Origin: Parvibaculum sp.
GTDB lineage: Bacteria; Pseudomonadota; Alphaproteobacteria; Parvibaculales; Parvibaculaceae
Assembly: GCF_019635935.1 (NCBI RefSeq)
Contig: NZ_JAHBYN010000001.1
Span: 2,507,532-2,571,531, forward strand
Direction of reading: 5' to 3'
Length of the DNA: 64,000 bases
A program made the translations under genes and the position numbers. Below are positions 664-46,941 of this stretch, piece after piece (within the stretch, counting starts at the first letter, position 1; every line of letters begins with the position of its first letter). Under the pieces are notes generated by a model. That model made no database searches, was not told where the DNA came from, and saw only the letters and a list, made by a program, of their open reading frames with translations.

Positions 664-737
664 GCGGGTGTAGCTCAATGGTAGAGCAGAAGCTTCCCAA
701 GCTTACGACGAGGGTTCGATTCCCTTCACCCGCTCCA
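664..737 (+). tRNA. tRNA-Gly (anticodon CCC), CCA encoded
   Basis: GCGGGTG acceptor pairs with CACCCGC; D-loop TAGCTCAATGGTAGAGC; anticodon loop TTCCCAA (CCC at 696-698); T-loop GTTCGATTC; ends TCCA. Confidence 0.97.
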
Positions 738-1838: not shown

Positions 1839-3830
<1,992 letters not shown>

Positions 3831-3889
3831 TGCGGTTCGCCCCAGCTTCTTGTATAAGTCGGGCATCCGCTGTTCCGCCCGAGGTCCGA

Positions 3890-5416
3890 ATGAGCCTCTC
3901 CCTCTATACGCTGATCGAATCGTCCTTCCCCGACGACCGCACGCGCCTTGCCCTTGAGGTGCCGGGCCGCACCCATGGGCCGCGCGACTGGTCCTTCGAT
4001 CGCCTGTCCGCCTATGCCGCGCGCTATGCAGCGCTCTTTGCGCAGCTTGGCCTGAAGCCCGGCGACCGCATTGCCCTGCAGGTCGAAAAGTCGCCCGAGG
4101 CGCTGGTGATCTATCTGGCCTGTTTGCGTGGCGGCTTCGTGTTCCTGCCCATGAACACCGCCTATCGCGTCGAGGAGGTCGACTATCTCGTCGGCGATGC
4201 CGAGCCCGCTCTGATCGTTTGCGACCCCGCGGTGGAAACCGCCATCGCCGACATCGCCGCGCGGCGCGGCGTGCCGCATCTGCTGACGCTCGACGCCGAC
4301 GCGCATGGCAGTTTCATTGACGCGGTCGCGACGGTTGCGGATGCTGTGCGGCCTGCCACCTGCGGCGCGGAGGATCTGGCGGTCATTCTCTATACGTCGG
4401 GAACCACCGGAAAGCCGAAAGGCGCCATGCTGACGCATGGCAATCTCGCGGCCAATGGATTGGCGTTGCGCGACGCCTGGCGTTTCACCGACGCCGACGT
4501 GCTGCTGCACGCCCTGCCGATTTTCCATGCGCACGGGTTATTCGTCGCCTGCCATTGCGCGCTTCTGTCGGGCGCGAAAATGATCTGGCGGCAGAAATTC
4601 GACCGCGCCGACGTGATTGCCCTGTTGCCGCGCGCCACCACTTTCATGGGCGTGCCGACCTTCTATACGCGCCTGCTCGCCGGGGACGACTTCAATGCCT
4701 CGCTGGTCGGCCATATGCGTCTGTTCACCTCCGGTTCCGCCCCCTTGCTCGCCGAGACCTTCGAGGCGTTCCGGGCGCGCACCGGTCATGCGATCCTTGA
4801 GCGCTACGGCATGACCGAGACCGGCATGAACACATCGAACCCCTATGACGGCGAACGTCGCGCCGGCACGGTTGGCTTTCCGCTGCCGGATGTCGAGCTG
4901 CGCGTGACGGACGAGGAAGGCCTGCCGCGCGCCTCCGGCGAGATCGGCGGCCTTGAGGTGCGCGGCCCCAATGTCTTTTCCGGCTATTGGCGGATGCCCG
5001 AAAAATCGGCGGCCGAGTTTGCGGAGGGCGGCTGGTTTCGAACCGGCGACATCGCAATGATCGACGCCGACGGCTATGTGCATCTGGTCGGCCGCGCCAA
5101 GGACCTCATCATCTCCGGCGGCTTCAACGTCTACCCGAAGGAGATCGAGGAGCTGGTCGACGACATGGCCGAAGTTCTGGAATCGGCCATCGTCGGCGTA
5201 CCTCATTCCGATTTTGGCGAGGCAAGTGTCGCGGTGGTCGTGCTGCGCGAAGGCGCGGCGCTCGATGAGGCGGCGCTCATTGCGCGGTTGAGGGAAAAGA
5301 TCGCCAATTACAAGGTGCCGAAGCGGGCCTTCTTCGTCGAAAGCCTGCCGCGCAACACCATGGGCAAGGTTCAGAAAAACCTGCTGCGCGAGGACTACAA
5401 GACGGCCTGCGCCTGA
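3890..5416 (+). CDS. matB: Malonyl-CoA synthetase (MatB-type acyl-CoA synthetase)
   Basis: YTSGTTGKPKG AMP-binding loop, LPIFHAHGLF, ILERYGMTET, GRAKDLIISGG, LPRNTMGKVQK. Confidence 0.88.
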   Translation: MSLSLYTLIESSFPDDRTRLALEVPGRTHGPRDWSFDRLSAYAARYAALFAQLGLKPGDRIALQVEKSPEALVIYLACLRGGFVFLPMNTAYRVEEVDYLVGDAEPALIVCDPAVETAIADIAARRGVPHLLTLDADAHGSFIDAVATVADAVRPATCGAEDLAVILYTSGTTGKPKGAMLTHGNLAANGLALRDAWRFTDADVLLHALPIFHAHGLFVACHCALLSGAKMIWRQKFDRADVIALLPRATTFMGVPTFYTRLLAGDDFNASLVGHMRLFTSGSAPLLAETFEAFRARTGHAILERYGMTETGMNTSNPYDGERRAGTVGFPLPDVELRVTDEEGLPRASGEIGGLEVRGPNVFSGYWRMPEKSAAEFAEGGWFRTGDIAMIDADGYVHLVGRAKDLIISGGFNVYPKEIEELVDDMAEVLESAIVGVPHSDFGEASVAVVVLREGAALDEAALIARLREKIANYKVPKRAFFVESLPRNTMGKVQKNLLREDYKTACA

Positions 5417-5419: not shown

Positions 5420-5950
5420 TCAGCTCTTGCGATCGGCTTCGCGGCGCTTGACCGGCGCCTTGCCGTCGCGGCGGCGGCGGTCGGGCCCGGTGAATTCCGC
5501 CGAGCGCACGATTGCGCGGGGCCGGGTCAGAACCGTCTCGATGCGGGTTGTCAGCTGCTGCGCCGAGAAGGGCTTGGAAAGAATTTCGGTTACGCCCGCG
5601 TCCCGCGCCGCGATGATCGCGCCGCGCTCGCGCTGCTCGGTCACATAGATGACCGGAATGGTGCTGAGTTCGCTTTCGTCGGCGGTCCGAATGGCGCGCA
5701 CGACGGAGAGCCCGTCAAGCGGCGGTTCGAGATCGTCCATGATCGCCAGATCGACCTTGCCGCGCATCAGCGCGCCCAGCGCTTCTTCGCCGGAGCGAAC
5801 GCTTGTTATGTTGCGAACGCCGAGGCCCGACAGGATGCCGCGCAGCAGGTTGGCCATGTACTGCGTGTCTTCGACGATGAGCACGCCCAGCTGTGCGTAT
5901 CGCTCGGGGCTGATGGTCTTGGTATCCGGCGCCGTGTTGTCCTGTGCCAT
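5420..5950 (-). CDS. CheY-like response regulator with C-terminal Arg-rich extension (Cle-type)
   Basis: REC residues ED, D (IMDD), T and KP are present; tail EFTGPDRRRRDG matches [Y/F]xGPx[R/K]R. Confidence 0.85.
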   Translation of the reverse strand: MAQDNTAPDTKTISPERYAQLGVLIVEDTQYMANLLRGILSGLGVRNITSVRSGEEALGALMRGKVDLAIMDDLEPPLDGLSVVRAIRTADESELSTIPVIYVTEQRERGAIIAARDAGVTEILSKPFSAQQLTTRIETVLTRPRAIVRSAEFTGPDRRRRDGKAPVKRREADRKS

Positions 5951-6024
5951 ATTTGTCTCTCGTTCGCTCGCCCGCCGCTGCCCGGCGCCTGTCCCGACTA
6001 TGGCCGAAACTCTTTATCGATTCG

Positions 6025-8022
6025 TTAGTGCGGCCCGCCCGAAGAGCTGTTTCCGTGCGGGATTTCGACCGGATTCGGGGAAGTTTGCAGCCGCGCGAGC
6101 TGTACCGCCATCATGCGGCTGAGGCCGTGGTCGGTCTTTTCCCAGTGGAAGGGCCTGGTGGCGAGCTGCCAGATCGCCTTGTAGGCCGCGACCGAAATCA
6201 GCAGCCAATAGGCCGGCATCATCAGCGTCTGCACGAAGAGCGGCGCCAGGCCGCGGGAGGCGACGGCCGCCATCCCGGCGGCGATGGAAAAGGAATAGCC
6301 GGACACCAGGACGGCGGCATTGAAAAAGGCCAGCGCCGTACCGTGCTGAAATCCGCCCGGTCCGCCGGCAAGGATGAGCGCCAGCGCCATGCTGGCGTAG
6401 AACATCGGGTGGAGCAGGTTCGACAACGAAAACCCGCCCATCACGATCTGGAAACCGACAAATCCCCGGAAGCCCAAGGCCCGGTAGAGCCGCACGGGGT
6501 GGCGCATCCGCACCAGATAGGTCTGCATCCAGCCTTTTACCCAGCGCGAGCGCTGGCGGACCCAGTTGTTGAGGCGGCAATTGGCTTCTTCCTGCGTCGT
6601 CGAGCGAATGATCCCGCAGCGATAGCCCATCAGTGCGAAGCGCTGTCCAAGGTCGGCATCTTCCGTCACATTGTTCGGATCCCATGCCCCCACCGCGCGC
6701 AATGCATCGATGCGGAAATGCGTCGAAGTGCCGCCAAGCGGAATCGGCAACCCGAGCCGCACCAGCGTCGGCAGCAGCAAGTCGAAGAAAGCGGCATATT
6801 CGATGGCGAATTGCCGCGTCAGCCAGTTTTCGTTCCAGTTGTAGTAGTTGAGCTGTGCCTGCACACAAGCCAGCCTTTCGTCGCCCAGCGCAAACGCGGC
6901 GACCGCCTTTTTGAGCTGCAGCGGCTCGGGCAGGTCTTCCGCATCGTAAATGACGAGCAGCTCGCCCCGTGCAAAGGGGAGCGCGAAATTGCAGGCCTTC
7001 GGCTTGGTCCGCGGCAGGCTCGTTGGCACACGGATGAAATCGAAATGGTCGGGAAGTTTCAGCGCCTTGGCGGCCTCCCATGTCGTGACGTCGCTCGCCT
7101 CGAACACGAGCTTGATGTCGAGCTTCGACGCCGGATAATCGAGGTCCTGCAATGCCCGCGCGATGATCGGCAGCACGCGCGCCTCGTCGTATAGCGGCAC
7201 CATCACCGTATAGACCGGCAGCGCGTCGTCCGGCGGCGCGCCGCGGCTTTGATAGGCGCGTTCCTCCGCGGTCGGTTGCGCCATCATGCCGACGAAAATC
7301 GAGGTGTAACGCAATGCGGCGACGGCGAAAAAACACAGACCGAGCACGACGTTGAGCGCCACCAGCGCGGCCGTGGGCGCGGCGACAAAGGCGGCGAGAG
7401 CAAGGATTGCAAGTCCGGCCAGAACGATCGCCTGCCGGCGCGTGACGGGGGTTGCAGCCGAGCTTTCCGGCATCTGCCGTGCAAGATCGAAGATTGCCCG
7501 CTCGTTCAGCGCGTCGCCGAACTCGTTCATGATCGTGCGGTCGATGTCGCGTGGCGAAGTAACGAAGACCGGTTGCGGCCGTCCTTCGTGCTGCGCGATC
7601 GCCGCGCGCGCCGTCGGCGGATCAGCCGCCACATAAATCGTCTCGGCGCCGTGCCGCCGCCAGGGCAGGCACTGTGTGCGCAGGTAGAAGTCGATTTCCT
7701 CCGCCCGCCGCAGCGCCCGGTCCCGCGGATCGGCCAGCAGGTTGACGAACGGGATGCCGTGCTGTGCCGCGTAAAGGCGCGCCATGTCGACCAGCCGCGC
7801 CGCGCCGGTGCTCACCATCACGCGGCCAAGCGATGTTCCCCAGTGGCGCTGCCGGTCGAGCGCCGTTGCAATGACCTCGGGCAGCGTCAGGCCGGAGGCC
7901 ACCGCCAATTCGCCGATCAGCGGCTTCGCGCCGCCTGGCGTCCGCTGTCGCACCGGGCGTCGCCGGCGGCCGGCACGCTTGGGCGCGGCCGCAGCTCCCT
8001 CGGCGGTTTTCTTTTCTTTCAA
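6025..8022 (-). CDS. Processive GT2 glycosyltransferase with N-terminal MshEN/GSPII_E_N-like domain
   Basis: VPLYDE, TKPKACN, IYDAED, VTEDADLG and QRSRW motifs plus C-terminal TMs; tandem 24-aa MshEN-like repeats. Start uncertain (TTG at 8022 chosen; ORF open to 8223). Confidence 0.85.
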   Translation of the reverse strand: MKEKKTAEGAAAAPKRAGRRRRPVRQRTPGGAKPLIGELAVASGLTLPEVIATALDRQRHWGTSLGRVMVSTGAARLVDMARLYAAQHGIPFVNLLADPRDRALRRAEEIDFYLRTQCLPWRRHGAETIYVAADPPTARAAIAQHEGRPQPVFVTSPRDIDRTIMNEFGDALNERAIFDLARQMPESSAATPVTRRQAIVLAGLAILALAAFVAAPTAALVALNVVLGLCFFAVAALRYTSIFVGMMAQPTAEERAYQSRGAPPDDALPVYTVMVPLYDEARVLPIIARALQDLDYPASKLDIKLVFEASDVTTWEAAKALKLPDHFDFIRVPTSLPRTKPKACNFALPFARGELLVIYDAEDLPEPLQLKKAVAAFALGDERLACVQAQLNYYNWNENWLTRQFAIEYAAFFDLLLPTLVRLGLPIPLGGTSTHFRIDALRAVGAWDPNNVTEDADLGQRFALMGYRCGIIRSTTQEEANCRLNNWVRQRSRWVKGWMQTYLVRMRHPVRLYRALGFRGFVGFQIVMGGFSLSNLLHPMFYASMALALILAGGPGGFQHGTALAFFNAAVLVSGYSFSIAAGMAAVASRGLAPLFVQTLMMPAYWLLISVAAYKAIWQLATRPFHWEKTDHGLSRMMAVQLARLQTSPNPVEIPHGNSSSGGPH

Positions 8023-8135
8023 GCGGGGGTTCCCCGAAATCGGTTTGCGACGGAACGCACGACAACAGGGTCCTGCACCTCGGAACTGACCTCTAATGCA
8101 GCCTATTAAAGATTTTCGTTTACCATAATAGACCA

Positions 8136-8156
8136 AAAGAACAGGGTACGTTCTTT
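8136..8156. promoter_or_regulatory. Inverted repeat AAAGAAC-N7-GTTCTTT, candidate operator
   Basis: Perfect 7-bp arms in the AT-rich divergent region between the GT2 and SBP genes. Confidence 0.4.
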
Positions 8157-8276
8157 GCTTAAAGACAGGCGGACGCGGCGCAATTCCGGTGGCGGCACGG
8201 GAACGGGCGTCTCGATGTGTCATACTGAGACGGTCGCAGTCGCTGAACTGACGGCAGGGGAACGGTTGGGGCGTTT

Positions 8277-9227
8277 ATGCGGTTTCTGCTCTATCTCAAC
8301 ACGATTGCGATCATCCTGCTGGCGGGCGCGCTGGTGCGGCTTTACGAGGACGCACCCTTGCCGTGGGCCGCGCCGCCGGTCGCGCTGGCGGCCGATCCTG
8401 CGCCGTCTGCGCCCGCCCCGTCGCCGCCACTGACGGCCGAACAATATGCGGCCCTGCAATTGCCCTTGCCGCACCCGGCGCGCACGCCGGCCGTCGCGCC
8501 CGATGCCGGTCCCGAGAAGCTGCGCCTGTTGACCGAAGGCGATTATCCGCCTTTCAACTTTCGCGGCGCCCAGGGCGATCTGACCGGTTTCGACATCGAA
8601 ATCGCGAATGCGCTATGCGCACGCCTGCGGGCGGAGTGCAGCTTCGAGCTTCGGCCCTGGATCGAGCTCGTCCCGGCGCTGAAGCGCGGCGAGGGCGATG
8701 CCGTGGTCGCTTCGATGCTGATCCCCGTGCCCGGTCGCGAAGCGCCCGCCGCCGTCGACGGCGTCGTTTTTACCGAACGCTACTATTCGACACCGGGCCA
8801 TTTCGCGGCGCGACGCACCGGCGCGCCCGTCGCGGCGACGCCGGCCGCGCTTGCCGGCAAGCGCATCGCGGTGCAGGCCGGCTCGGTGCATCACGCCTAT
8901 GTCCGGCATCGGTTCCCGGAAGCCCGGCCGCTCGCGCTGCCGACGCTCGCTGAGGCGCAGGCCGCACTCGCTGGCGGCGACGCCGATCTCCTTTTCGCGG
9001 ACCGGAACGCCCTCCTGCGCTGGACGGCGGCGGGCGAGGGTGCCTGCTGCCGTCTCGCCGGCTCGGGCTATGGGGATCCGGCATGGTTCGGCGAGGGCGC
9101 GGGCATTGCCCTGCGCGCCGGCGACGAGGCGCTGCGCGACAGGCTCAACGCCGCGCTCGAGGAACTGGTGGCCGACGGCACCTATGCCCGCATCAGCACC
9201 CGCTATTTCGCCAACAATATCTACTGA
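8277..9227 (+). CDS. Polar amino-acid ABC-type substrate-binding protein (PBPb), N-terminally anchored
   Basis: TEGDYPPFNF, GFDIEIANALC, LKRGEGDAVV, GTYARIS motifs; hydrophobic N-terminus followed by a Pro-rich linker. Confidence 0.88.
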   Translation: MRFLLYLNTIAIILLAGALVRLYEDAPLPWAAPPVALAADPAPSAPAPSPPLTAEQYAALQLPLPHPARTPAVAPDAGPEKLRLLTEGDYPPFNFRGAQGDLTGFDIEIANALCARLRAECSFELRPWIELVPALKRGEGDAVVASMLIPVPGREAPAAVDGVVFTERYYSTPGHFAARRTGAPVAATPAALAGKRIAVQAGSVHHAYVRHRFPEARPLALPTLAEAQAALAGGDADLLFADRNALLRWTAAGEGACCRLAGSGYGDPAWFGEGAGIALRAGDEALRDRLNAALEELVADGTYARISTRYFANNIY

Positions 9228-14953: not shown

Positions 14954-16840
14954 TCAGTTGCCGAGGCTCGGATAGGCCTTGGCGAGTTCGCGCCATGTGG
15001 CGGTGATTTTCTGCTGCAGCCGCTGCACGTCGCGCATCGCGGCATCGATCTCGCCGTAGTTAAGTGCGGTTTCGATGTCGCCGGCCACATGCGAAATCGC
15101 CGCAAGGCCGATATTGCCGGCGGCGGCCCGCAAGGCATGCGCCCCTTCGGCCAGCGCTGCCTCGTTGCGTTCGGTGCGCGCCCGCTCGACGGCGCGATGC
15201 AGCGTCAATACGCGCTCGAGTCCCGACAGCAAATGATCCGTAATGCGTTGCGGTCCGACTTCGCGCTCGATGTCGTAAAGATGCCCGAGATCGATCAGCT
15301 GTTCCGGCTCCTTGCGCCTTGGCATCGTTGCATCGGCCGCGAGCGATGCGAAGTAACTGGCCGCGCCGCCCGGTTCCATCGGCAGCAGGAACCAGAAGGT
15401 GCTCCCCTGTCCCGGCGCGCTATCGACGCCGATCCGGCCGTCCATCAGCCGCACCAGCCGGTCGCAGATCGGCAGGCCGAGGCCCATGCCGCCCGCCTTG
15501 CCGGCGAAGCGGAAGTCGCGCGCATCGCCGCCCTGCCAGAAGGTTTCAAATAGCTGCGCGCGGGATTCGTCCGAAAGGCCGGGCCCTGTATCGGTAACCG
15601 AAAAGCGGATGACGGTGTCGCCGTCCGGTGTCTGGATCGGCGCAATGCGAACGACAATGCCGCCCTTGTCGGTGAATTTTATGCTGTTGCCGATCAGGTT
15701 GGTCAGCACCTGGCGGACGCGGTCGGCATCGGCCAGCATGTCGACATCCGCACCCTGCGCGACATCGAGTTCCAGCGAAAGTCCGCGTTCGTTCGCCTGG
15801 TGACGCATCATCCGCACGACGCTCCCGGCAAGCTCCGTCGGGTCGAAGCGGCGGTGCTTCAGTTCCAGCGACAGCGCTTCCATCTGCGACAGGTCGATCA
15901 TGTCGTCGAAGAGGCGACGCAGCAGCTGGCTTGTCTCCTCCATCGACTGTGCGATTTTCCGCTGCGCGTCGCTCAACGGTTCGTCGGCGAGATGCATCGC
16001 CATGTTGCTCAGGCCTTCCAGCGGCGCTCGCACCTCATGGTTCATGATGTCGAGAAACGCCTGCTTGGCCTGCATGGCGGCAGTCGCGCGCGCTTCCGCG
16101 TCCACGGCGTCGCGATGCTTTTGCTCGGCCACTGCATGGGCGCGCGCCATCCGCTCGGCGAGATCGGCATTTTCGAAACGCAGCCGGAACGCCTCGCGAT
16201 AGCTGGCATTCACGCGCCGCGTCCAGCCGGCGACGGTGGCGAAAAACATGGCCGCCAGCATGACGGTGGCGATCGCCAGGGGCTCGGCGCGCCACAGCAA
16301 CATCGCCACGGTCGGCAAGCATGAGGCGGCGATGTAATAGATGACGGCAGGAGGATGGTTGGCGCGTGTGATGGCTGTCGCCATGGCAAGACAGGCGAGG
16401 ACCAGCAGGTAGAATATCTCATGCGTGAACGAGGCGCCCGGCAGCCACAGCAACGACCCGACGCCCCATGTCGAGCCGCTGACAAGCGTGACCAGCGCAT
16501 AGCGGTTGGCCCACAGCGCTGCATTGCCCACGGCGTCGGGATCGGCGCGAAACCCTGCCCGCACCCGGTCGAACAGAAACTGCGCCACAAGCTGGATCGC
16601 CGCGACGATGCCGATGGTCCAGAGTGGCGCATAGGGCCAGAACGCAAGCCCCACCACCACGATGGCGCCGAAAACGGTCAGCCGGCTTGCTTCGCCGAGC
16701 TCCAGCAACAGGCGCACCTGCTCGGCGTCGATCCGTGCGTCGATGGGGTGGCTGCGGCGAACGGGGCCAACCGGCGCGGCGGCGCCCGCGCCGTCGGCGC
16801 CGGTTGTTGTCGATCCCTGCTCCGGTTCGGCGTCTCTCAA
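14954..16840 (-). CDS. Membrane sensor histidine kinase with C-terminal HPt domain and no receiver
   Basis: Multiple N-terminal TMs; H-box MNHEVRAPL; NLIGNSIKFT, DTGPG, GMGLGL; HPt AHALRAAAGNIG. TTG start with upstream GGAG. Confidence 0.85.
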   Translation of the reverse strand: MRDAEPEQGSTTTGADGAGAAAPVGPVRRSHPIDARIDAEQVRLLLELGEASRLTVFGAIVVVGLAFWPYAPLWTIGIVAAIQLVAQFLFDRVRAGFRADPDAVGNAALWANRYALVTLVSGSTWGVGSLLWLPGASFTHEIFYLLVLACLAMATAITRANHPPAVIYYIAASCLPTVAMLLWRAEPLAIATVMLAAMFFATVAGWTRRVNASYREAFRLRFENADLAERMARAHAVAEQKHRDAVDAEARATAAMQAKQAFLDIMNHEVRAPLEGLSNMAMHLADEPLSDAQRKIAQSMEETSQLLRRLFDDMIDLSQMEALSLELKHRRFDPTELAGSVVRMMRHQANERGLSLELDVAQGADVDMLADADRVRQVLTNLIGNSIKFTDKGGIVVRIAPIQTPDGDTVIRFSVTDTGPGLSDESRAQLFETFWQGGDARDFRFAGKAGGMGLGLPICDRLVRLMDGRIGVDSAPGQGSTFWFLLPMEPGGAASYFASLAADATMPRRKEPEQLIDLGHLYDIEREVGPQRITDHLLSGLERVLTLHRAVERARTERNEAALAEGAHALRAAAGNIGLAAISHVAGDIETALNYGEIDAAMRDVQRLQQKITATWRELAKAYPSLGN

Positions 16841-16934: not shown

Positions 16935-16964
16935 AAGCCTTAAGTGATCCTTTCGAGACCAGAA

Positions 16965-18587
16965 ATGCCAGCCGACTCAACAACGATAGCACCATCCGCG
17001 CTCCTTGAGGCCGCCCGCGTCAGCAAGGCCTGGCCGTTCGAGGAAGCGCGCAAGATCGTCGACCGTCTGGAGAAGGAAGGCGAAACCGGCCGCACGGTCC
17101 TGTTCGAGACAGGGTACGGCCCATCCGGCCTCCCGCATATAGGCACATTCGGCGAAGTGGCGCGCACCACCATGGTCCGCCGCGCCTTCGAGATTTTGGC
17201 ACCCGGCGTGCCGACGCGCCTGATCTGTTTCTCCGACGACATGGACGGCCTGCGCAAGGTGCCGACCAATGTGCCCAATCAGGAGATGCTGGCCGGCTAC
17301 ATCAACATGCCGCTGACGAAAGTGCCCGATCCCTTCGGCACCCATTCGAGCTTCGGCGCGCACAACAACGCCCGCCTGCGGGCCTTCCTCGACTCTTACG
17401 GCTTCGAGTACGAATTCGCGAGCTCGACCGAGTACTACAAGGCCGGCCGCTTCGACGCGACGCTCCTGAAGGTGCTCGAAAAGTTCGACGAGATCATGGA
17501 GATCATGCTGCCGAGCCTGCGCGAGGAGCGCCAGCAGAGCTACAGCCCGATCCTGCCCGTCAGCCCGCGCACCGGCCATGTGCTGCTGGTGCCGCTCGTC
17601 GCGCGCGACGCGAAGAGAGGCACCGTGAGCTATGCTGAACCCGACACCGGCGAGGTGGTCGAAGTCCCCGTCACCGGCGGCAACTGCAAGCTGCAATGGA
17701 AGGCCGACTGGGCGATGCGCTGGGTCGCGCTCGGCGTCGACTACGAGATGGCCGGCAAGGACCTGATCGATTCCGTCAAGCTCGCCTCGCGCATCTACCG
17801 TGTGCTGAGCAACAAGCGCCCGCCGGAAGGCTTCAACTACGAATTGTTTCTCGACGAGGAAGGCAAGAAGATTTCGAAGTCGAAGGGCAACGGCCTCTCG
17901 ATCGAGGACTGGCTGCGCTATGCGAGCCCGGAAAGCCTGCAATATTTCATGTTCCAGAGCCCGCGCGCCGGCAAGCGCCTTTATTTCGACGTCATCCCGC
18001 GCAATGTCGACGAATATCTGGGCGCGCTGACGGCCTATCCGAAGCAGGATGCGCGCGAGCGCCTCAACAACGCGGCCTTCCACATTCACGGTGGAAATCC
18101 GCCCACGGAAGACCTGCCGATCTCGTTTTCGCTGCTGCTCAATCTGGCGAGCGCCAGCCATTCCGAAGACCGCAACGTGCTCTGGGGCTTCATCCGCAAC
18201 TATGCGCCCGACGCGACGCCCGAAAATCATCCGCGCCTCGACCATCTCGTCGGCTACGCGATCAACTACTTCCACGATTTCGTGAAGCCCGCCAAGAAGT
18301 ACCGCGCGCCGAGCGACATCGAGCGCGCGGCGCTGGACGATCTCGCCGCCCGCCTCGACGCCGCGCCCGCCGAGGCGAGCGCCGAGGAACTGCAGAACAT
18401 CGTCTACGAAATCGGCAAGACCCATGAGTTCGCGAACCTGCGCGACTGGTTCCGGGCGCTTTACGAAGTGCTGCTGGGCGAGGAGCAGGGTCCGCGCTTC
18501 GGCACCTTCGTCAAGCTTTATGGCGTCAAGGAAACCGTGGCGCTGATCCGCCGCGCGCTGGCCGGCGAGGACATGTCGAAAGGCTGA
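16965..18587 (+). CDS. lysS: Lysyl-tRNA synthetase, class I
   Basis: [15 protein letters not shown] (HIGH-like), [21 protein letters not shown] (KMSKS-like). Confidence 0.96.
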
Positions 18588-18590: not shown

Positions 18591-19235
18591 TCACTGGCTC
18601 GCCCAGATGATCCGCGCCATCCATAAAATCTCTTCCGCTTTCAGCACCCGGTCGTCATGTGCCGGATTGAGCGAATGCAGCTCGACGCTTTTCGCGGTCC
18701 GCCGCGCCAGCACCTTGGCCATCACCTCGCCATCGACCGTCTTCACCACCACGCGGTCGCCGCGCCGGATACCCGCCGCCGGCGACACGATGATGATGTC
18801 GCCGTCGCGATAAACGGGTGCCATGCTGTCGCCGCTGACTTCCAGCGCATAGGCGTGTTCGTCGTCGAAATCGGGGAAGGCGACTTCCTCCCAGCTTCCG
18901 CCGACCGGAAACCCGGCATCGTCGAAAAAGCCGCCGCCGCCGGCTTGCGCCAGCCCGATCAGCGGCACGTTCCGGGCGCGCGCGGCTTTCTGCGTATCGC
19001 CGCCCACCAGCATCAGGAATTCGTCGAACCCCGCCCCCGTCGCGTCCAGAATGCGCGCCAGGCTCTCGGTATTGGGCCAGCGCGGCCGCCCCTTGGCGGT
19101 AATCCGCTTCGACTTGTTGAATGTCGTCGGGTCGAGCCCGGCCGCCTTGGCAAGCCCCGAAGCGGTCAGCCCGTGCCGTGCCGCCAGCGCGTCGATGGCG
19201 GCCCACAGCCGGCTATGGGAGAGCTTGCGCGCCAT
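18591..19235 (-). CDS. HTH + S24 peptidase (LexA/CI-like) transcriptional regulator
   Basis: N-terminal HTH WAAIDALAARHGLTASGLAKAAGLDPTTFN; S24 VSGDSM and VMAK dyad. Confidence 0.9.
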   Translation of the reverse strand: MARKLSHSRLWAAIDALAARHGLTASGLAKAAGLDPTTFNKSKRITAKGRPRWPNTESLARILDATGAGFDEFLMLVGGDTQKAARARNVPLIGLAQAGGGGFFDDAGFPVGGSWEEVAFPDFDDEHAYALEVSGDSMAPVYRDGDIIIVSPAAGIRRGDRVVVKTVDGEVMAKVLARRTAKSVELHSLNPAHDDRVLKAEEILWMARIIWASQ

Positions 19236-19390
19236 GGCCCGAATGAATTCCTCGTTTCGCGGATCGCTGGGAATAGTGCCACATCGCCCGGGCGTCCGCA
19301 TCCCGGATTTGCGGCTTTGATTCCTATGCCCCGCCTTGTTCTGCCTCCACCCGCTGGTTAGAGTGCGCCCGCGCAGCCGGAGAAACCGCA

Positions 19391-19738
19391 TTGCCTTCCA
19401 TCCTCTACAAAATCGTCGGCGAGCATGAGTGGCTCGCCGCCGCCGCCGAAGGCCGCTTCATCGGTTCGGCGGTCGATCTCGATGACGGCTTCATCCATTT
19501 CTCGACCGCCGGACAGGTCGCCGAAACGGCGGCCCGCCATTTCGCCGGCCGCAAGGGGCTGGTGCTGGTTGCGGTCGAGGCGGCCGCCCTCGGCGCGGCG
19601 CTGAAATGGGAGCCCTCGCGCGGCGGCGCGCTCTTTCCCCATCTCTACGACGTGCTGGACCTCAAGGCCGTGCGCCGCGTCGTGCCGCTGCCCGTCGGCG
19701 AAGACGGTGCGCATCTCTTTCCGGAGCTCGATGTATGA
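19391..19738 (+). CDS. DUF952 family protein
   Basis: LYKIV, DGFIHFST, KWEPSRGGALFPHLY. Confidence 0.9.
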   Translation: MPSILYKIVGEHEWLAAAAEGRFIGSAVDLDDGFIHFSTAGQVAETAARHFAGRKGLVLVAVEAAALGAALKWEPSRGGALFPHLYDVLDLKAVRRVVPLPVGEDGAHLFPELDV

Positions 19739-30808: not shown

Positions 30809-31005
30809 GGGGGCGGGGCACTCCGTGTCGTGAAAGGGCCATGGAAGGTATCGCCAGTCTCCCATGATGATCCTCTGAATTGAAGCCCCGCCACGGCCCG
30901 GCGGTTTCGTCGGTGGCTTCATTCGAGCGTATTTCGGGAGATAGGCTGAAAACGGGGATCGAGCGCATCGCTGACAATTGGCCGCAACCTGCTAACCTTC
31001 CGCCC

Positions 31006-33573
31006 ATGACAGCCCCGCTCCCCGCGCCCCGAACACCGCAAGCGCCCGCCGCGCTGCCGCCGGCCTTCGCCCGCTGGTTCGCCGCCCGCGGCTGGCGCCC
31101 GCGCGCGCATCAACTGGCGCTGCTCGATCTCGCCTGCACCGGAAATTCCGCGCTGCTGATCGCCCCCACCGGCGCCGGCAAGACGCTGGCGGGCTTCCTC
31201 CCCTCGCTGGTCGATCTCGCAGAAAATCCGCCATCGAAGCCCGCGCTGCACACGCTCTACATCTCGCCGCTGAAGGCGCTCGCCGTCGACGTAAAGCGCA
31301 ACCTCGAAATCCCGATTGCCGAAATGGGTCTCGACATCGCCATCGAAACCCGCACCGGCGACACGCCGCAGAACCGCCGCCTGCGCCAGCGCCACACGCC
31401 GCCCTCAATCCTGATGACGACGCCGGAGCAACTGGCGCTGCTGCTTTCCTACAGCGATGCGCCCAAATTCTTCGCCGCGCTCTCCTGCATCGTCCTCGAC
31501 GAGCTGCACGCATTGGCCAATTCGAAACGCGGCGATCTCTTGTCGCTCGGCCTCGCACGTCTCTCGCGTCTTGCGCCCGCCGCGCGCCGCGTCGGCCTGT
31601 CCGCTACCGTCGCCGAGCCCGATGCGCTCAGGCGTTATCTGATGCCGCAGTCGCCAAGTGATGAAACAGGCGGCGAAAGCCTCGCCGAAATCGTCGTCGC
31701 GCCGCCCGGTGCCGCGCCCGAAATCAACATTGTCGCCACGGGCCTGCCCGACGAAGAGGGCGGCGAGGCGCGCATCCCCTGGTCGGGTCATTCGGCGCGT
31801 CACGCGCTCCCCGCCGTCTACGAGGCGATCCGGCAAAACCGCATCGTGCTGGTCTTCGTCAACACGCGCTCTCAGGCCGAATTCGTCTTTCAGGAACTCT
31901 GGCGCCTCAACGACGACGCGCTCCCGATCGCGCTGCATCACGGCTCGCTCGCCGCCGAAGCCCGCCGCAAGGTCGAGGCCGCCATGTCGGCGGGCACGCT
32001 TCGCGCCGTCGTCTGCACCTCGACCCTCGATCTCGGCATCGACTGGGGCGAGGTCGATCTCGTCGTCAACATGGGCGCCCCGAAAGGCGCGAGCCGCCTG
32101 CTGCAGCGCATCGGCCGCGCCAATCACCGCCTCGACGAACCCTCGCGCGCGCTGCTGGTGCCGGCCAACCGTTTCGAGGTGCTCGAATGCGAGGCGGCCC
32201 GCGCCGCCGCCCTTGAAGGTGCGCAGGACGGCATGGTCGCGCGGCAAGGCGCGCTCGACGTGCTGGCGCAGCACATTCTCGGTTGTGCCTGTTCGCAGCC
32301 ATTCGACCCCGACGATCTCTATACGGAGGTTCGCTCCGCCGCGCCCTACCGCGCGCTGACGCGCGACGATTTCGGCAAACTGGTCGATTTCGTCGCCACC
32401 GGCGGCTATGCCCTGAAGACCTATGACCGCTTCGCGCGGCTCCGCCCCAACGCGAAGCTCGAAGGCGACATGCGCCTGCGCGCGTCCTCGCCTTCCGTCG
32501 TCCAGCAATACCGCATGAATGTCGGCACCATCGTCGAGGCGCCGATGCTGAAGGTGCGGATGATAAGGCGCGGCGGGCGCCGCCCCGTCGGAGGCATGGG
32601 CGGGCGTTACCTCGGCGAGATCGAGGAATATTTCATCGACCAGCTCTCCCCCGGCGACACTTTCCTCTTCGCCGGCCACATCCTGCGTTTCGAAGGTCTC
32701 GCCGAAACCGAGGCGCTCGTCACGAAGTCGCCATCCGGCGAACCGATGATCCCGTCCTACTACGGCGGCAAGTTTCCGCTCTCGACCTATCTGGCCGCCC
32801 GTGTCCGCCGCATGCTGGCGCACAAACCCGAATGGCGGCATCTGCCGCCGCAGGTCCGCGAATGGCTCGAAATGCAGAGCTGGCGCTCGGTGCTGCCCGG
32901 CGAAGACAATCTGCTGGTCGAGTGCTTCCCGCGCGGCGACAAGTACTATCTCGTCTGCTACCCCTTCGAGGGTCGCCTCGCGCATCAGACGCTCGGCATG
33001 CTGCTGACCCGCCGCCTCGACCGCGCCGGCGCGCGGCCGATGGGCTTCGTCGCCTCTGAATATTCGCTGGCGATCTGGTGCCTGCGCGATCCGGGCCTGA
33101 TGCATGAGCGTCACGAGCTGCCGCTCGGCGAGTTGTTCGCCGAAGACATGCTGGGCGACGATCTCGACGCATGGCTCGCCGAATCGAGCCTCTTGAAACG
33201 CACCTTCCGCGATTGCGCCATTATTGCCGGCCTGATCGAGCGCCGCTATCCGGGCCATGAGAAGTCGGGCCGTCAGGTCACCTTCTCCTCCGACCTCATA
33301 TATAATGTGCTGCGCGAGCACGAGCCCGACCACATCCTGCTGCGCGCCACCTTCAACGACGCCGCCACCGGCCTGCTCGACATCGCCCGCGTCGCTGCCA
33401 TGCTGAAACGCATCCGTGGCCGCATCGTCCTGAAACGCCTCGACCGCGTCTCCCCGCTCGCCGTCCCGGTCCTCCTCGACATCGGCAAGGTCCAGGTCGA
33501 CGGCGAGGCCAGCGAAGCGCTACTCTCCGAAGCGGCCGACAAGCTGATCGAGGAAGCGACGCGGCTGGTGTGA
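31006..33573 (+). CDS. lhr: Ligase-associated DNA damage response DEXH helicase (Lhr family)
   Basis: APTGAGKT, YISPLKAL, LDELH, GLSAT, LDLGID, QRIGRANH. Confidence 0.92.
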   Translation: MTAPLPAPRTPQAPAALPPAFARWFAARGWRPRAHQLALLDLACTGNSALLIAPTGAGKTLAGFLPSLVDLAENPPSKPALHTLYISPLKALAVDVKRNLEIPIAEMGLDIAIETRTGDTPQNRRLRQRHTPPSILMTTPEQLALLLSYSDAPKFFAALSCIVLDELHALANSKRGDLLSLGLARLSRLAPAARRVGLSATVAEPDALRRYLMPQSPSDETGGESLAEIVVAPPGAAPEINIVATGLPDEEGGEARIPWSGHSARHALPAVYEAIRQNRIVLVFVNTRSQAEFVFQELWRLNDDALPIALHHGSLAAEARRKVEAAMSAGTLRAVVCTSTLDLGIDWGEVDLVVNMGAPKGASRLLQRIGRANHRLDEPSRALLVPANRFEVLECEAARAAALEGAQDGMVARQGALDVLAQHILGCACSQPFDPDDLYTEVRSAAPYRALTRDDFGKLVDFVATGGYALKTYDRFARLRPNAKLEGDMRLRASSPSVVQQYRMNVGTIVEAPMLKVRMIRRGGRRPVGGMGGRYLGEIEEYFIDQLSPGDTFLFAGHILRFEGLAETEALVTKSPSGEPMIPSYYGGKFPLSTYLAARVRRMLAHKPEWRHLPPQVREWLEMQSWRSVLPGEDNLLVECFPRGDKYYLVCYPFEGRLAHQTLGMLLTRRLDRAGARPMGFVASEYSLAIWCLRDPGLMHERHELPLGELFAEDMLGDDLDAWLAESSLLKRTFRDCAIIAGLIERRYPGHEKSGRQVTFSSDLIYNVLREHEPDHILLRATFNDAATGLLDIARVAAMLKRIRGRIVLKRLDRVSPLAVPVLLDIGKVQVDGEASEALLSEAADKLIEEATRLV

Positions 33574-42143: not shown

Positions 42144-42653
42144 ATGGACCAGCAGCTTCACAGCGCCATCGAGGCGCCCCGCCGCAACAGCCGCGATGCC
42201 GCCGGCGAGACCTTCTCGATCACCCAGCTCGCCGAGGAATTCGGCCTGACGACCCGCGCCATCCGCTTCTATGAAGACAAGGGACTGCTGTCGCCCGAGC
42301 GCCGCGGCCAGACCCGCGTCTATCACCCGCGCGACCGCGCGCGCCTGACGCTGATCGTGCGCGGCAAGAACGTCGGGCTGGCGCTGGCCGAGATCAAGGA
42401 AATCCTGAGCCACTACGACCAGGAAGACGGTTGCGTGACGCAAAACCGCGTCGCCATCGGCAAGTTCCGCCGCCGCATCGAAAGCCTCAAGGAGCAGCGC
42501 CGCGAGATCGACCTCCAGATCAAGACGCTGGAAGAGAGCTGTGCCCGCCTTGAGGCGCAGATCGCCGCCAGCGAAAAGCGCGACCGGGCCGAAAAGAAGC
42601 TCGTCGCCTCCGAAGCGGCGAAGACGAAAAAGCCGGAAAAGGCTATCGTCTGA
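42144..42653 (+). CDS. liuR: MerR family regulator, LiuR-like
   Basis: [32 protein letters not shown]…YHPRDRARL. Confidence 0.85.
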
Positions 42654-42705
42654 GGCTTGGCGCGGCCGGCAAGAACCGGCCCCGCAAACCCGCCGGAGGA
42701 AACCC

Positions 42706-44499: not shown

Positions 44500-44524
44500 A
44501 TGTCGAAGACAGGGAGCACGACGA

Positions 44525-45682
44525 ATGAGTCTGAATGCCGGTTACAAATCGCCTTGGCTGAACGAGGAACTTGAAATCCTCCAGGGCGCGGTCGCCAAGT
44601 TCTATGAAAGGGAATTCCAGCCGCATGTCGAGCGCTGGGAGGACCAGGGCTGCGTCGATCGCGACGCCTGGCTGAAGGCGGGCGAAGCCGGTATTCTCTG
44701 CGCGTCGATCAAGGAGGAATACGGCGGCGGCGGCGGCAATTTCGCCCATGAAATGGTGATCGCCGAAGAGCAGGGCCGCGCCGGCATTTCCGGCTTCGGC
44801 AACTCCGTGCATTCGGGCATCGTCGCCCACTACATCCAGTCCTACGGCACCGAGGATCAGAAGAAGAAGTGGCTGCCGAAAATGGCGTCGGGCGAAATCG
44901 TCGGCGCCATCGCGATGACCGAACCCGGCACCGGCTCCGATCTGCAGGGCGTCAAGACGACGGCGAAGAAGTCCGGCAACCAGTATGTGGTCAACGGCCA
45001 GAAGACCTTCATCACCAACGGCCAGCAGGCAAACCTCATTTGCGTCGTCGCCAAGACCGATCCGGCCGGCGGCGCTAAGGGCACCTCGCTGATCATGGTC
45101 GAAACCGACGAGGCCGAAGGCTTCCGCCGCGGCCGCAACCTGAAGAAGATGGGCCAGAAGGCGCAGGACACGTCCGAGCTTTTCTTCGACGAAGTGAAAG
45201 TGCCGACCTCGAACCTGCTCGGCACCGAGGAAGGCAAGGGCTTCTTCCAGTTGATGCAGCAGTTGCCGCAGGAACGCCTCATTATTTCGGTGCAGGCCTG
45301 CGTCGCGATGGAAATGGCGCTGAAATACACGACCGACTATGTGAAGGAGCGCACCGCCTTCGGCCAGCGCATCCTCGATTTCCAGAACACGCAGTTCAAG
45401 CTCGCCGAATGCAAGACCGAAGCGACCATCGCCCGCGTCTTTGTCGACGACTGCGCGGTGAAGCTTCTCGACGGCAAGCTCGACGCCACGACAGCCGCCA
45501 TGGCCAAGTGGTGGACGACGCAGAAGGAAAACGAAATCATCGACACCTGTCTGCAGTTCTTCGGCGGCTATGGCTACATGATGGAATATCCGATCGCCAA
45601 GCTCTACACGAATGCCCGCATCCAGAAGATCTACGGCGGCACCAACGAAATCATGAAAATGCTGGTCGCCCGCACGCTCTGA
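44525..45682 (+). CDS. Acyl-CoA dehydrogenase (LCAD-type catalytic Glu)
   Basis: [30 protein letters not shown]. Confidence 0.93.
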
Positions 45683-45728
45683 CGCGGCGCCGGAAATACG
45701 AAAACAATTTCCCCCAGGGAGACATCCA

Positions 45729-46934: not shown

Positions 46935-46941
46935 GGCGACA

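What the first reader, a model, noticed from the sequence alone, without database searches (positions are those of the whole stretch)
5420..8022. Candidate c-di-GMP surface-attachment module: MshEN-GT2 glycan synthase followed by a Cle-type CheY
Seen: the GT2 carries two 24-aa repeats separated by 5 aa (LIGELAVASGLTLPEVIATALDRQ / SLGRVMVSTGAARLVDMARLYAAQ), which is MshEN spacing, plus D, DxD, TED and QRxRW motifs of processive synthases. The next co-oriented gene, 74 bp away, is a receiver protein ending in FTGPDRRRR. Known: MshEN binds c-di-GMP (as in MshE and the N4-receptor synthase NfrB); Caulobacter Cle proteins bind c-di-GMP through [Y/F]xGPx[R/K]R and link the flagellar motor to holdfast production. 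Inference: an undescribed two-gene unit coupling motor or surface sensing to synthesis of a surface glycan (adhesin or phage receptor). Caveat: both repeats lack the leading Arg of RLG.
Basis: partly seen in the sequence, partly recalled or inferred. Interest (0 to 1): 0.75.

Follow-up and report, generated by a model that had tools for sequence, protein, structure and literature searches.

The report
Paired c-di-GMP-type glycan synthase and receiver
A Parvibaculum bacterium carries a two-gene unit: a membrane sugar-polymer synthase with a built-in sensor domain for the signal molecule c-di-GMP, followed by a small CheY-like protein whose tail resembles another c-di-GMP-binding peptide. Both parts are known kinds, but this pairing and this tail variant have not been described.

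Summary
On the minus strand, a 665-aa XagB-family processive GT2 synthase (6025..8022) carries an N-terminal MshEN domain. After a 74-bp gap with no terminator comes a 176-aa stand-alone receiver (5420..5950).

The receiver's tail is homologous to the c-di-GMP-binding peptide of Caulobacter CleD: its only PDB hit is 6SFT. It is not a canonical Cle. It has one [Y/F]xGPx[R/K]R copy, not two, and the structural motif is shortened to DRR-x9-RRxxD instead of x11. That variant is conserved across the subfamily.

The missing Arg of MshEN repeat 1 is the family norm (Leu in 69 of 87 relatives). The Ser in repeat 2 is a local change. All Gly, hydrophobic and Gln positions and the 5-aa spacer are kept.

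The adjacency holds within Parvibaculaceae and close relatives: 7 of 7 metagenome loci carrying this receiver subtype have the synthase immediately upstream. About 72 canonical tandem-motif receivers have no synthase nearby, and 31 of them sit near motA. The pair is separable, since one genome keeps the receiver without the synthase.

Best reading: an operon encoding two c-di-GMP receptors, in which c-di-GMP switches on glycan synthesis. A link to the flagellar motor or to surface sensing is unproven. This is a new variant of known kinds, of moderate interest.

The parts
6025..8022 (-). XagB-family membrane-embedded processive GT2 synthase, 665 aa, with an N-terminal MshEN domain
   Evidence: Pfam GT2 families plus MshEN. 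The same 665-aa gene is called in public contigs. The AlphaFold model has pLDDT 90.3 and pTM 0.88. Foldseek top hits are BcsA, hyaluronan synthases and chitin synthases.
7762..7920 (-). MshEN_N: two 24-aa c-di-GMP-type repeats (residues 35-58 and 64-87) with a 5-aa spacer, forming a four-helix bundle
   Evidence: Repeat positions and family conservation. Unique in the window at 3 or fewer mismatches to the relaxed motif. Helices at 36-42, 48-61, 65-71 and 77-88 in the model. Aligns to PilF c-di-GMP-binding domains.
7468..7761 (-). MshEN_C subdomain and the long helix leading to the first transmembrane helix (about residues 88-185)
   Evidence: The Pfam PF05157 match corresponds to residues 88-164 of the 665-aa protein. 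Strands and helices at 107-183 in the model.
6538..7210 (-). GT-A catalytic domain with D311, DAED 360-363, TED 453-455 and QRSRW 490-494
   Evidence: These columns are invariant in 87 relatives. Pfam PF13632, PF13641 and PF00535.
5951..6024 (-). 74-bp intergenic gap with no terminator-like structure and GAGAG upstream of the ATG
   Evidence: No terminator found on this strand. The fold z-score is 0.17. The sequence was read directly.
5420..5950 (-). Stand-alone CheY-like receiver, 176 aa, with a C-terminal Arg-rich tail (a Cle-like variant)
   Evidence: Pfam Response_reg at 72.4 bits. The phospho-acceptor set E27, D28, D72, T104 and K126 is conserved, and R116 is invariant. The model shows a receiver fold, then a beta-hairpin, then a disordered tail.
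5432..5521 (-). Arg-rich tail, residues 144-173: PRAIVRSAEFTGPDRRRRDGKAPVKRREAD, i.e. DRR-x9-RRxxD
   Evidence: The only PDB hit is the CleD peptide 6SFT (E = 0.019). P144, R145, G155-R160 and R170 are invariant. 78 of 114 homologues carry DRR-x9-[RK]RxxD.
8023..8276 (.). Divergent promoter region shared with the SBP_bac_3 gene. It is AT-rich and holds a conserved imperfect inverted repeat at about 8216-8232.
   Evidence: Sequence. Alignment with Parvibaculum loci. No Rfam match and no CtrA box.

Best explanation
A two-gene operon in a Parvibaculum genome encodes two proteins with different c-di-GMP-receptor modules.

Gene 1 is an inner-membrane processive GT2 synthase and translocase of the XagB family. 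Its cytoplasmic N-terminal MshEN domain is inferred to bind one c-di-GMP and relieve inhibition of the catalytic domain. A surface or secreted glycan would then be made only at high c-di-GMP, by analogy with NfrB (MshEN) and BcsA (PilZ).

Gene 2 is a single-domain CheY-like receiver. Its disordered Arg-rich tail is inferred to fold around an intercalated c-di-GMP dimer, as the CleD peptide does. The receiver still has an intact phospho-acceptor pocket, so it could combine phosphorylation with c-di-GMP input.

What is shown: domain identities, fold, motif conservation, operon-like arrangement, and clade-specific linkage of this receiver subtype to the synthase.

What is inferred: ligand binding by either protein, activation of synthesis, and the target of the receiver. 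The target could be the flagellar switch, as for Cle, or the synthase itself.
For: - MshEN identity: Pfam score above cutoff. PilF and PilB MshEN domains are hit at E = 5e-16 to 1e-8. The four-helix bundle plus MshEN_C is modelled at pLDDT above 90.
- MshEN conservation in 87 relatives: spacer of 5 in 87/87, Gly3 in 86/87 for both repeats, Gly10 in 80 and 85, Gln24 in 75 and 85.
- The literature says the hydrophobic and Gly residues matter more than 10-fold for binding, while alteration of Arg9 changes affinity no more than about fivefold (PMC5013675).
- Synthase: the fold matches BcsA, HAS and chitin synthases, and the D/DxD/TED/QxxRW motifs are invariant.
- Receiver tail: the only PDB hit is the CleD c-di-GMP peptide. 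The binding residues defined by NMR (DRR ... [R/K]RxxD, PMC7382256) are all present and invariant or nearly so. The alpha4 Arg required in Cle proteins is invariant. The model shows a hairpin followed by a disordered tail, as described for the apo CleD peptide.
- Linkage: the unit is flanked by divergent and convergent genes. The gap is 59-111 bp in five annotated loci and there is no terminator. GT then receiver is found in L001-L005, L017 and L081-L086, and in 7 of 7 metagenome loci of this receiver subtype, against 0 of about 72 for canonical tandem-motif receivers.
- Among the Hyphomicrobiales loci with the divergent SBP gene, the receiver is present where MshEN is detectable and absent where it is not.
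Against: - Both MshEN repeats lack the leading Arg, and the dedicated NCBIfam c-di-GMP motif model scores below its cutoff (20.2 against 38 bits).
- The receiver tail has only one [Y/F]xGPx[R/K]R copy. It lacks the second aromatic residue, which stacks on a guanine in CleD. Its loop is 2 residues shorter, and single-residue loop deletions in the CleD peptide raised Kd 2- to 10-fold (PMC7382256).
- The pair is separable. One related genome keeps SBP, receiver and AMP-ligase with no GT. Several relatives keep the GT with no receiver.
- All the conserved adjacency lies within one syntenic block of one family, so shared ancestry explains part of it.
- No bcsB, xagC or xagD partner or outer-membrane export gene is in the window.
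- There are no expression data.
Confidence: 0.6

Rival explanations
1. The adjacency is inherited gene order without functional coupling. The synthase is an ordinary XagB-type EPS enzyme. The receiver is a Cle-like motor regulator that acts on FliM independently of the synthase. Both merely belong to the same c-di-GMP regulon.
For: The whole block (helicase, TerB, FA_hydroxylase, His_Phos, SBP, GT, receiver) is syntenic across the clade. One genome has lost the GT but kept the receiver in place. Other Hyphomicrobiales keep the GT without a receiver. Canonical relatives of the receiver sit next to motA.
Against: Genes downstream of the receiver vary (AMP-binding, DUF2804, MAPEG) while GT and receiver stay together. 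This receiver subtype is found with the GT in 7 of 7 metagenome loci and never with motA. It has lost the aromatic residue at the CheY Y106 position that the motA-linked group keeps.
Confidence: 0.3
2. The receiver is a conventional phosphorylation-controlled single-domain response regulator. Its basic tail is a disordered extension that does not bind c-di-GMP. It relays a signal from a histidine kinase, for example the HisKA-HATPase-Hpt protein at 14954..16840.
For: The full phospho-acceptor set is conserved: E27, D28, D72, T104 and K126 at 89-98%. The tail departs from the published tandem motif and spacing. A kinase with an Hpt domain lies 9 kb away.
Against: The tail is the most conserved part of the protein (PR, FxGPDRRR, RR, D invariant or nearly so), which is not expected of a spacer. 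It keeps every residue that H-bonds c-di-GMP in the CleD peptide structure, and its only PDB match is that peptide.
Confidence: 0.15
3. The MshEN domain of this particular protein is degenerate and no longer binds c-di-GMP, as in XpsE. It serves only as a structural or protein-interaction module.
For: Leu and Ser replace the Arg at position 1 of both repeats, and Thr sits at a hydrophobic position of repeat 1. The NCBIfam c-di-GMP motif model scores below its cutoff. Wang et al. list R38G among the changes in non-binding XpsE.
Against: XpsE also lost both Gly, several Leu and the Gln, all of which are kept here. Leu at repeat 1 position 1 is the family norm (69 of 87), under the same strong conservation as the rest of the motif. 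Alteration of Arg9 changed affinity no more than about fivefold.
Confidence: 0.25

Closest known systems
XagB of the Xanthomonas xagABCD operon, and bcsB-xagBCD clusters of stalk-forming iron oxidisers
   Same: Same protein family: Xanthomonas loci L011 and L015 show 45-46% identity over residues 30-636, including the MshEN region. One relative (P0120) is named XagB by its source. It is a processive GT2 needed for a biofilm EPS, and it is up-regulated when the HD-GYP phosphodiesterase RpfG is deleted (PMC3609779).
   Different: Here there are no bcsB-like, xagC or xagD neighbours. A Cle-like receiver follows instead, and a membrane-anchored SBP_bac_3 gene is divergent. No held paper contains both MshEN and xag.
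NfrB of E. coli (c-di-GMP-activated ManNAc-polymer synthase, receptor pathway of phage N4)
   Same: GT2 with DxD/TED/QxxRW fused to an MshEN domain that binds c-di-GMP and is needed for activity (PMC8669469). The MshEN regions align weakly (NCBIfam PRK11234 and PRK15489).
   Different: In NfrB the MshEN is C-terminal; here it is N-terminal. The GT domains are only distantly related (E = 0.039 to the NfrB model). There are no nfrA or ybcH partners. NfrB has the fully conserved motif, including Arg.
Caulobacter Cle proteins (CleA-E; CleD peptide structure 6SFT)
   Same: CheY-like receiver plus a C-terminal Arg-rich region. The PRxxV hairpin, [Y/F]xGPDRRR, [R/K]RxxD and the invariant alpha4 Arg are all present.
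   Different: One motif copy instead of a tandem. The spacing is DRR-x9-RRxxD rather than x11. There is no second aromatic residue. Ile or Val replaces the aromatic residue at the CheY Y106 position. The gene is linked to a glycan synthase rather than to che or motor genes. The phospho-acceptor Asp is kept, whereas CleD has Glu at that position.
BcsA-PilZ cellulose synthase
   Same: Closest solved fold for the GT and membrane part (4P00, E = 1.5e-13). The logic is the same: a c-di-GMP receptor domain fused to a processive synthase.
   Different: The receptor domain is MshEN at the N terminus rather than PilZ at the C terminus. There is no BcsB partner in this locus. Sequence identity is about 20%.

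Membership tests
MshEN domain (c-di-GMP receptor, Wang et al. 2016) | Domain-level homology to T2SSE_N/MshEN | tested here: met
   Pfam PF05157 scores 37.7 bits against a cutoff of 23.1. PilF and PilB MshEN domains are hit at E = 5e-16 to 7e-6, and MshE 5HTL at E = 0.077.
MshEN domain (c-di-GMP receptor, Wang et al. 2016) | Two 24-residue motifs joined by a 5-residue spacer, forming a four-helix bundle | tested here: met
   Residues 35-58 and 64-87 with spacer RHWGT. The spacer is 5 residues in 87 of 87 relatives. The model shows four helices at pLDDT above 90.
MshEN domain (c-di-GMP receptor, Wang et al. 2016) | Full motif RLGxx(L/V/I)(L/V/I)xxG(L/V/I)(L/V/I)xxxxLxxxLxxQ, including the leading Arg | tested here: inconclusive
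   Gly3, Gly10, Gln24 and nearly all hydrophobic positions are kept. Position 1 is Leu in repeat 1 and Ser in repeat 2, and position 12 of repeat 1 is Thr: 3 mismatches to the relaxed pattern. NCBIfam NF053729 scores 20.2 bits, below its cutoff of 38.
MshEN domain (c-di-GMP receptor, Wang et al. 2016) | Binds c-di-GMP | not testable with these tools
   Needs ITC, DRaCALA or MST on residues 30-190.
Processive membrane GT2 synthases (BcsA, HAS, PgaC, NodC, NfrB type) | D, DxD, TED and QxxRW signatures with a GT-A fold fused to a transmembrane channel | tested here: met
   D311, DAED 360-363, TED 453-455 and QRSRW 490-494 are invariant. The model has 2 + 3 long transmembrane helices and an interface helix. 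Foldseek hits BcsA, HAS and chitin synthases at E = 1e-13 to 1e-7.
XagB family / xag operon | Orthology to XagB | tested here: met
   Xanthomonas loci show 45-46% identity over nearly the full length. Relative P0120 is named XagB by its source.
XagB family / xag operon | Operon with bcsB-like or xagA, xagC and xagD | tested here: not met
   These partners flank the GT in most non-Hyphomicrobiales loci. They are absent from this locus and from the 64-kb window.
[quoted passage not shown] 2017) | Stand-alone CheY-like receiver with a C-terminal extension | tested here: met
   PF00072 covers residues 23-138. The best NCBIfam model is CheY. The extension spans 139-176.
[quoted passage not shown] 2017) | Tandem repeat of [Y/F]xGPx[R/K]R in the Arg-rich region | tested here: not met
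   Only one copy (FTGPDRR at 153-159). The second copy is replaced by APVKRR through a 2-residue deletion at the 'GP' position. Canonical relatives at about 40-45% identity do have the tandem.
[quoted passage not shown] 2017) | Structural binding motif DRR-x11-[R/K]RxxD (Hee et al. 2020) | tested here: inconclusive
   All ligand-contacting residues are present (D157, R158, R159, R169/R170, D173), but the spacer is 9, not 11. 78 of 114 homologues share x9. The only PDB hit of the tail is 6SFT, at E = 0.019.
[quoted passage not shown] 2017) | Conserved Arg in helix alpha4 of the receiver | tested here: met
   R116 (CheY position 99) is invariant in 106 GT-linked and 65 canonical tandem-motif receivers. 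Its equivalence to CleD R113 is inferred from spacing, because the full CleD sequence was not obtained.
[quoted passage not shown] 2017) | c-di-GMP-dependent binding to FliM / the flagellar motor | not testable with these tools
   There is no motor or che gene in the window. The Y106-equivalent residue is Ile or Val here and Phe in the canonical group, which argues for caution.

The most novel reading that the evidence does not exclude
The GT-linked receivers are a distinct branch of the Cle-like family, marked by DRR-x9-RRxxD and Ile/Val at the CheY Y106 position. This branch would have been re-targeted from the flagellar switch to the MshEN-type glycan synthase. The receiver would then be a dedicated, c-di-GMP- and possibly phosphorylation-gated partner of the synthase. 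In this reading it takes the regulatory place of the BcsB/XagC/XagD partners that this clade lacks, giving a synthase controlled by two different c-di-GMP receptors with different stoichiometry and affinity.
Probability: 0.15. Interest if true: 0.75.

Novelty: new variant of a known kind. Interest (0 to 1): 0.5.

Why it matters
If both proteins bind c-di-GMP, this would be a compact natural case of two unrelated c-di-GMP receptor modules in one operon. MshEN binds a monomer through mainly hydrophobic contacts, while the Arg-rich peptide binds an intercalated dimer. The two could set two thresholds for making a surface glycan.

It would extend the experimentally shown NfrB principle, an MshEN-gated synthase, to the XagB family. 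That family runs from Proteobacteria to Chloroflexota, Actinomycetota, Bacillota and Bacteroidota, and is implicated in Xanthomonas biofilms and possibly in iron-oxidiser stalks.

It would also define a shorter natural c-di-GMP-binding peptide variant (DRR-x9-RRxxD), which is relevant to the engineered c-di-GMP-sequestering peptides.

Finally, the contrast between motA-linked canonical receivers and synthase-linked variant receivers gives a direct way to ask how Cle-type proteins choose their targets.

Tried and rejected
- RNA evidence for co-transcription: no RNA runs hold this sequence. The DNA runs are metagenomes only.
- Full-length CleD for a direct receiver comparison: a 33-aa query was too short, and a padded query returned only the PDB peptide itself. 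The comparison therefore rests on the 36-aa peptide, the published motifs and canonical tandem-motif relatives.
- Sequence search of the GT domain against the PDB found nothing at E <= 0.001. The fold search was needed instead.
- c-di-GMP riboswitch or any other Rfam element in or around the unit: none at E <= 1.
- CtrA box (TTAA-N7-TTAA) in the promoter region: none there, and the 3 one-mismatch matches in the window are no more than chance.
- Terminator in the 74-bp gap: none.
- bcsB, xagC and xagD homologues in the window: none.
- Flagellar, chemotaxis, GGDEF or EAL genes in the window: none among the 20 large ORFs scanned. The window is otherwise housekeeping and metabolism. About 20 smaller ORFs were not scanned.
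- The idea that the missing Arg of repeat 1 marks a degenerate domain was rejected, because Leu is the family norm there.
- The Roseobacter phage-resistance gene RD1_1962, described as an 'NfrB homologue' (PMC13392355), was considered as a possible family member. Its sequence could not be obtained, so it remains only a lead.
Full report
**What is there**

The window comes from a Parvibaculum species (Parvibaculaceae, Alphaproteobacteria). The closest homologues of both proteins are from Parvibaculum genomes and MAGs. Two genes lie on the minus strand.

- The first runs 8022..6025 with a TTG start and encodes 665 aa. Two independent public contigs call exactly this product.
- A 74-bp gap follows. 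It has no terminator-like hairpin and folds no better than shuffled sequence (z = 0.17).
- The second gene runs 5950..5420 and encodes 176 aa.
- The pair is bounded upstream by a divergent SBP_bac_3 gene (8277..9227, plus strand) and downstream by a convergent AMP-binding ligase gene (3692..5416, plus strand). It is therefore an isolated two-gene unit.

**The synthase**

Pfam finds three overlapping GT2 families and MshEN (PF05157, 37.7 bits, cutoff 23.1).

The N-terminal 161 residues match the c-di-GMP-binding MshEN/GSPII domains of Thermus PilF (E = 5e-16) and the N-termini of PilB ATPases. MshE itself (5HTL) is hit only at E = 0.077.

An AlphaFold model built on 87 relatives is confident, with pLDDT 90.3 and pTM 0.88. 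It shows, in order:
- a four-helix bundle (residues 36-88), made of the two 24-aa repeats;
- an alpha/beta MshEN_C subdomain;
- a long connecting helix and two transmembrane helices;
- a GT-A domain;
- an interface helix carrying QRSRW;
- three long transmembrane helices.

Foldseek places the GT and membrane part with BcsA, hyaluronan synthases and chitin synthases (E = 1e-13 to 1e-7). D311, DAED 360-363, TED 453-455 and QRSRW 490-494 are invariant in 87 relatives. The protein is therefore a membrane-embedded processive polysaccharide synthase and translocase with an N-terminal MshEN domain.

**Is the MshEN domain likely to bind c-di-GMP?**

I scored the tandem site against the relaxed pattern used by Wang et al. 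2016 (PMC5013675). It has 3 mismatches in 20 constrained positions. It is the only place in the six-frame translation of the window (66,675 positions) with 3 or fewer; the next best sites have 5.

Conservation in 87 relatives:

| Feature | Repeat 1 | Repeat 2 |
|---|---|---|
| 5-residue spacer | 87/87 (one spacer between the repeats) | |
| Gly at position 3 | 86/87 | 86/87 |
| Gly at position 10 | 80/87 | 85/87 |
| Gln at position 24 | 75/87 | 85/87 |
| Position 1 in the family | Leu in 69/87 | Arg in 66/87 |
| Position 1 in the window protein | Leu (the family norm) | Ser (7/87 share it) |

The missing Arg in repeat 1 is a feature of the family. The missing Arg in repeat 2 is a change in this Parvibaculum subclade.

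Wang et al. report that mutating the conserved hydrophobic residues lowers affinity more than 10-fold and that the G11L and G40I variants bind poorly, if at all. Altering Arg9 changed affinity no more than about fivefold. Non-binding XpsE has lost both Gly, several Leu and the Gln, and all of these are kept here.

Against binding, the NCBIfam model for the 53-aa c-di-GMP motif scores 20.2 bits, below its cutoff of 38. I rate binding as likely, but it is unproven.

**Which synthase family?**

The family is very large: 6,727 hits at E <= 1e-5 among 8,000 scored candidates. It spans many phyla. One relative is named XagB by its source, and Xanthomonas loci are 45-46% identical over almost the full length.

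In 80 reference-genome loci, the N-terminal MshEN region is detectable in most members with a family HMM. Some members carry several copies. P0107 has four.

The usual neighbours are a BcsB-like gene upstream, then a large PMT_2-like membrane protein (XagC) and a 276-aa protein (XagD) downstream. This matches the published xagABCD and bcsB-xagBCD clusters. Those clusters are needed for biofilm EPS in Xanthomonas and have been proposed for iron-oxidiser stalks (PMC3609779; PMC4643136).

None of these partners is in this locus or anywhere in the 64-kb window. No held paper contains both MshEN and xag.

**The receiver**

Pfam finds only Response_reg, covering residues 23-138. The best NCBIfam model is CheY.

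The phospho-acceptor set is conserved in the subfamily: E27, D28, D72, T104 and K126.

The C-terminal tail, PRAIVRSAEFTGPDRRRRDGKAPVKRREAD, has exactly one PDB match. That match is the 36-aa c-di-GMP-binding peptide of Caulobacter CleD (6SFT, E = 0.019 in a search of 177,635 sequences).

The published definitions of the Cle region are:
- a tandem [Y/F]xGPx[R/K]R (PMC5677366);
- from the NMR structure, DRR-x11-[R/K]RxxD, preceded by a beta-hairpin (PMC7382256).

The window protein differs as follows:
- It has the hairpin region, one FTGPDRR copy, and DRR-x9-RR-EA-D.
- Alignment with canonical relatives shows a two-residue deletion exactly at the 'GP' of the second copy.
- The second aromatic residue, which stacks on a guanine in CleD, is absent.

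The variant is not decay. P144, R145, G155 to R160 and R170 are invariant, and 78 of 114 full-length homologues share the x9 form.

R116, in helix alpha4, is also invariant. An Arg there is required for Cle function.

The model shows a receiver fold, then a hairpin at 147-156, then a disordered tail. This is what is described for the apo CleD peptide. Single-residue loop deletions in the CleD peptide raised Kd 2- to 10-fold but did not abolish binding. A weaker or differently tuned site is therefore plausible.

The protein fails the tandem-motif criterion of the Cle family. It is best described as a Cle-like variant.

**Is the adjacency conserved?**

Starting from the synthase:
- Down to about 50% identity, the block helicase, TerB, FA_hydroxylase, His_Phos_1, SBP_bac_3 (divergent), MshEN-GT2 and one or two receivers is conserved.
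- The genes after the receiver vary: AMP-binding, DUF2804 or MAPEG.
- Among 80 reference loci, a Cle-like receiver immediately follows the GT only in L001-L005 and L017. These are Parvibaculaceae, a 'Rhodobiaceae' MAG and one Hyphomicrobiales MAG.

Starting from the receiver, a metagenome scan gave two groups:
- Seven loci carry the x9-type receiver at 46% identity or more, with upstream sequence available. All seven have the GT immediately upstream.
- About 72 loci carry canonical tandem-motif receivers at about 40% identity, mostly DRR-x11-RRxxD. None has the GT within 4 kb.
- In 31 of those canonical loci, a MotA gene lies about 0.6 kb downstream. In the three annotated examples a small gene lies between them, with a weak Hpt match in the one scanned.

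The linkage to the synthase is therefore specific to this receiver subtype.

The two groups also differ at the position of CheY Y106, the aromatic switch residue that contacts FliM in CheY (my own knowledge). It is Ile or Val in 106 of 106 GT-linked receivers and Phe in 57 of 65 canonical ones.

**Limits of the linkage**

The pair is separable.
- One related genome (P0175, 58% identical receiver with x11 spacing) has SBP_bac_3, the receiver and the AMP-ligase in the same synteny, but no GT.
- Other Hyphomicrobiales have the divergent SBP and the GT but no receiver. In these, MshEN is not detectable by the family HMM or by Pfam, and in several the N-terminal region is 65-125 residues shorter.
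- In L017 both modules look degenerate. The MshEN signal is weak and the receiver tail reads GPCRR.

This co-occurrence of MshEN with the receiver fits a shared c-di-GMP logic. However, it rests on few, phylogenetically clustered loci, and all positive cases sit in one syntenic block.

**Mechanism**

The best-supported reading (confidence about 0.6) is an operon encoding two c-di-GMP receptors.
- The synthase would be held inactive until c-di-GMP binds its MshEN domain. This is the principle shown experimentally for NfrB (PMC8669469) and, with a PilZ domain, for BcsA.
- The receiver's tail would fold on a c-di-GMP dimer and switch the receiver on, possibly combined with phosphorylation at D72.

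What the receiver then binds is open.
- No motor, chemotaxis or cyclase genes were found among the ORFs of the window that I scanned.
- motA linkage belongs to the other subfamily.
- The Y106-equivalent residue is not aromatic.

The more novel alternative is that this branch was re-targeted to the synthase. It fits the linkage pattern, but I give it only about 0.15.

The rivals are inherited synteny without coupling, a purely phospho-controlled receiver, and a non-binding MshEN. They are listed with their tests.

**Novelty and verdict**

MshEN-glycosyltransferase fusions were noted in 2016, and one (NfrB) has been characterised. XagB is a named family, and Cle proteins and their peptide are well studied.

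What I did not find described:
- the near-universal N-terminal MshEN of the XagB family as a c-di-GMP input;
- the DRR-x9-RRxxD receiver subfamily;
- the specific linkage of that subfamily to the synthase, in contrast with motA-linked canonical forms.

This is a new variant of known kinds. It is moderately interesting and can be tested directly in Parvibaculum lavamentivorans DS-1, which appears to carry the same pair: its GT and receiver homologues (P0035, P0145) share a 3.9-Mb contig.

Noticed in passing
window 14954-16840 (-): A membrane histidine kinase with HisKA, HATPase_c and a C-terminal Hpt domain but no receiver domain. It lies 9 kb from the orphan receiver and is a possible phosphodonor for it.
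   Followed up: no
window about 8216-8232, in the divergent intergenic region 8023-8276: An imperfect inverted repeat, GTCTCA-N3-TGACAC, plus an AT-rich block (TCTATTA.GGTAAA). Both are conserved in the Parvibaculum loci L001, L002, L090 and L096. This may be an operator for the divergent SBP and GT promoters.
   Followed up: partly
window 8277-9227 (+); loci L001, L002, L004, L005, L017, L032, L041, L044, L052, L060, L063, L068, L078: An SBP_bac_3 protein with an N-terminal membrane anchor and a Pro/Ala-rich linker is transcribed divergently from the GT. This holds in 13 of 80 reference loci, so it is more widespread than the receiver adjacency. It could be plain synteny or a periplasmic partner of the synthase.
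   Followed up: partly
loci L097-L169 (metagenome); L087, L088, L089: Canonical tandem-motif (Cle-type) receivers are common in soil and water metagenomes. In 31 of about 72 loci a MotA stator gene lies about 0.6 kb downstream; in three annotated examples a 160-173-aa gene lies between, with a weak Hpt match in the one scanned.
   Followed up: partly
protein P0107 (1105 aa); loci L036, L046, L050, L066: Some XagB-type synthases carry multiple tandem MshEN domains. P0107 has four.
   Followed up: no
loci L084, L085, L086, L004, L005, L093-L095: Many relatives have two tandem Cle-like receivers after the GT. The second has a different tail, YVGPDRRRRRDDGT..ERR. The window has only the first.
   Followed up: partly
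place rD7uA5SI (no DNA held): A related genome keeps the same synteny (helicase, TerB-like, His_Phos, SBP, receiver, AMP-ligase), but the GT is missing between the SBP gene and the receiver.
   Followed up: partly
window 664-737 (+); 16944-18587 (+); 18591-19391 (-); 30880-33573 (+); 42541-49197 (+): tRNA-Gly(CCC), class I lysyl-tRNA synthetase, a LexA-like S24 peptidase, an Lhr-type helicase, and a beta-oxidation cluster (two acyl-CoA dehydrogenases, a thiolase, and a fused hydratase/dehydrogenase). This is an ordinary chromosomal context.
   Followed up: no
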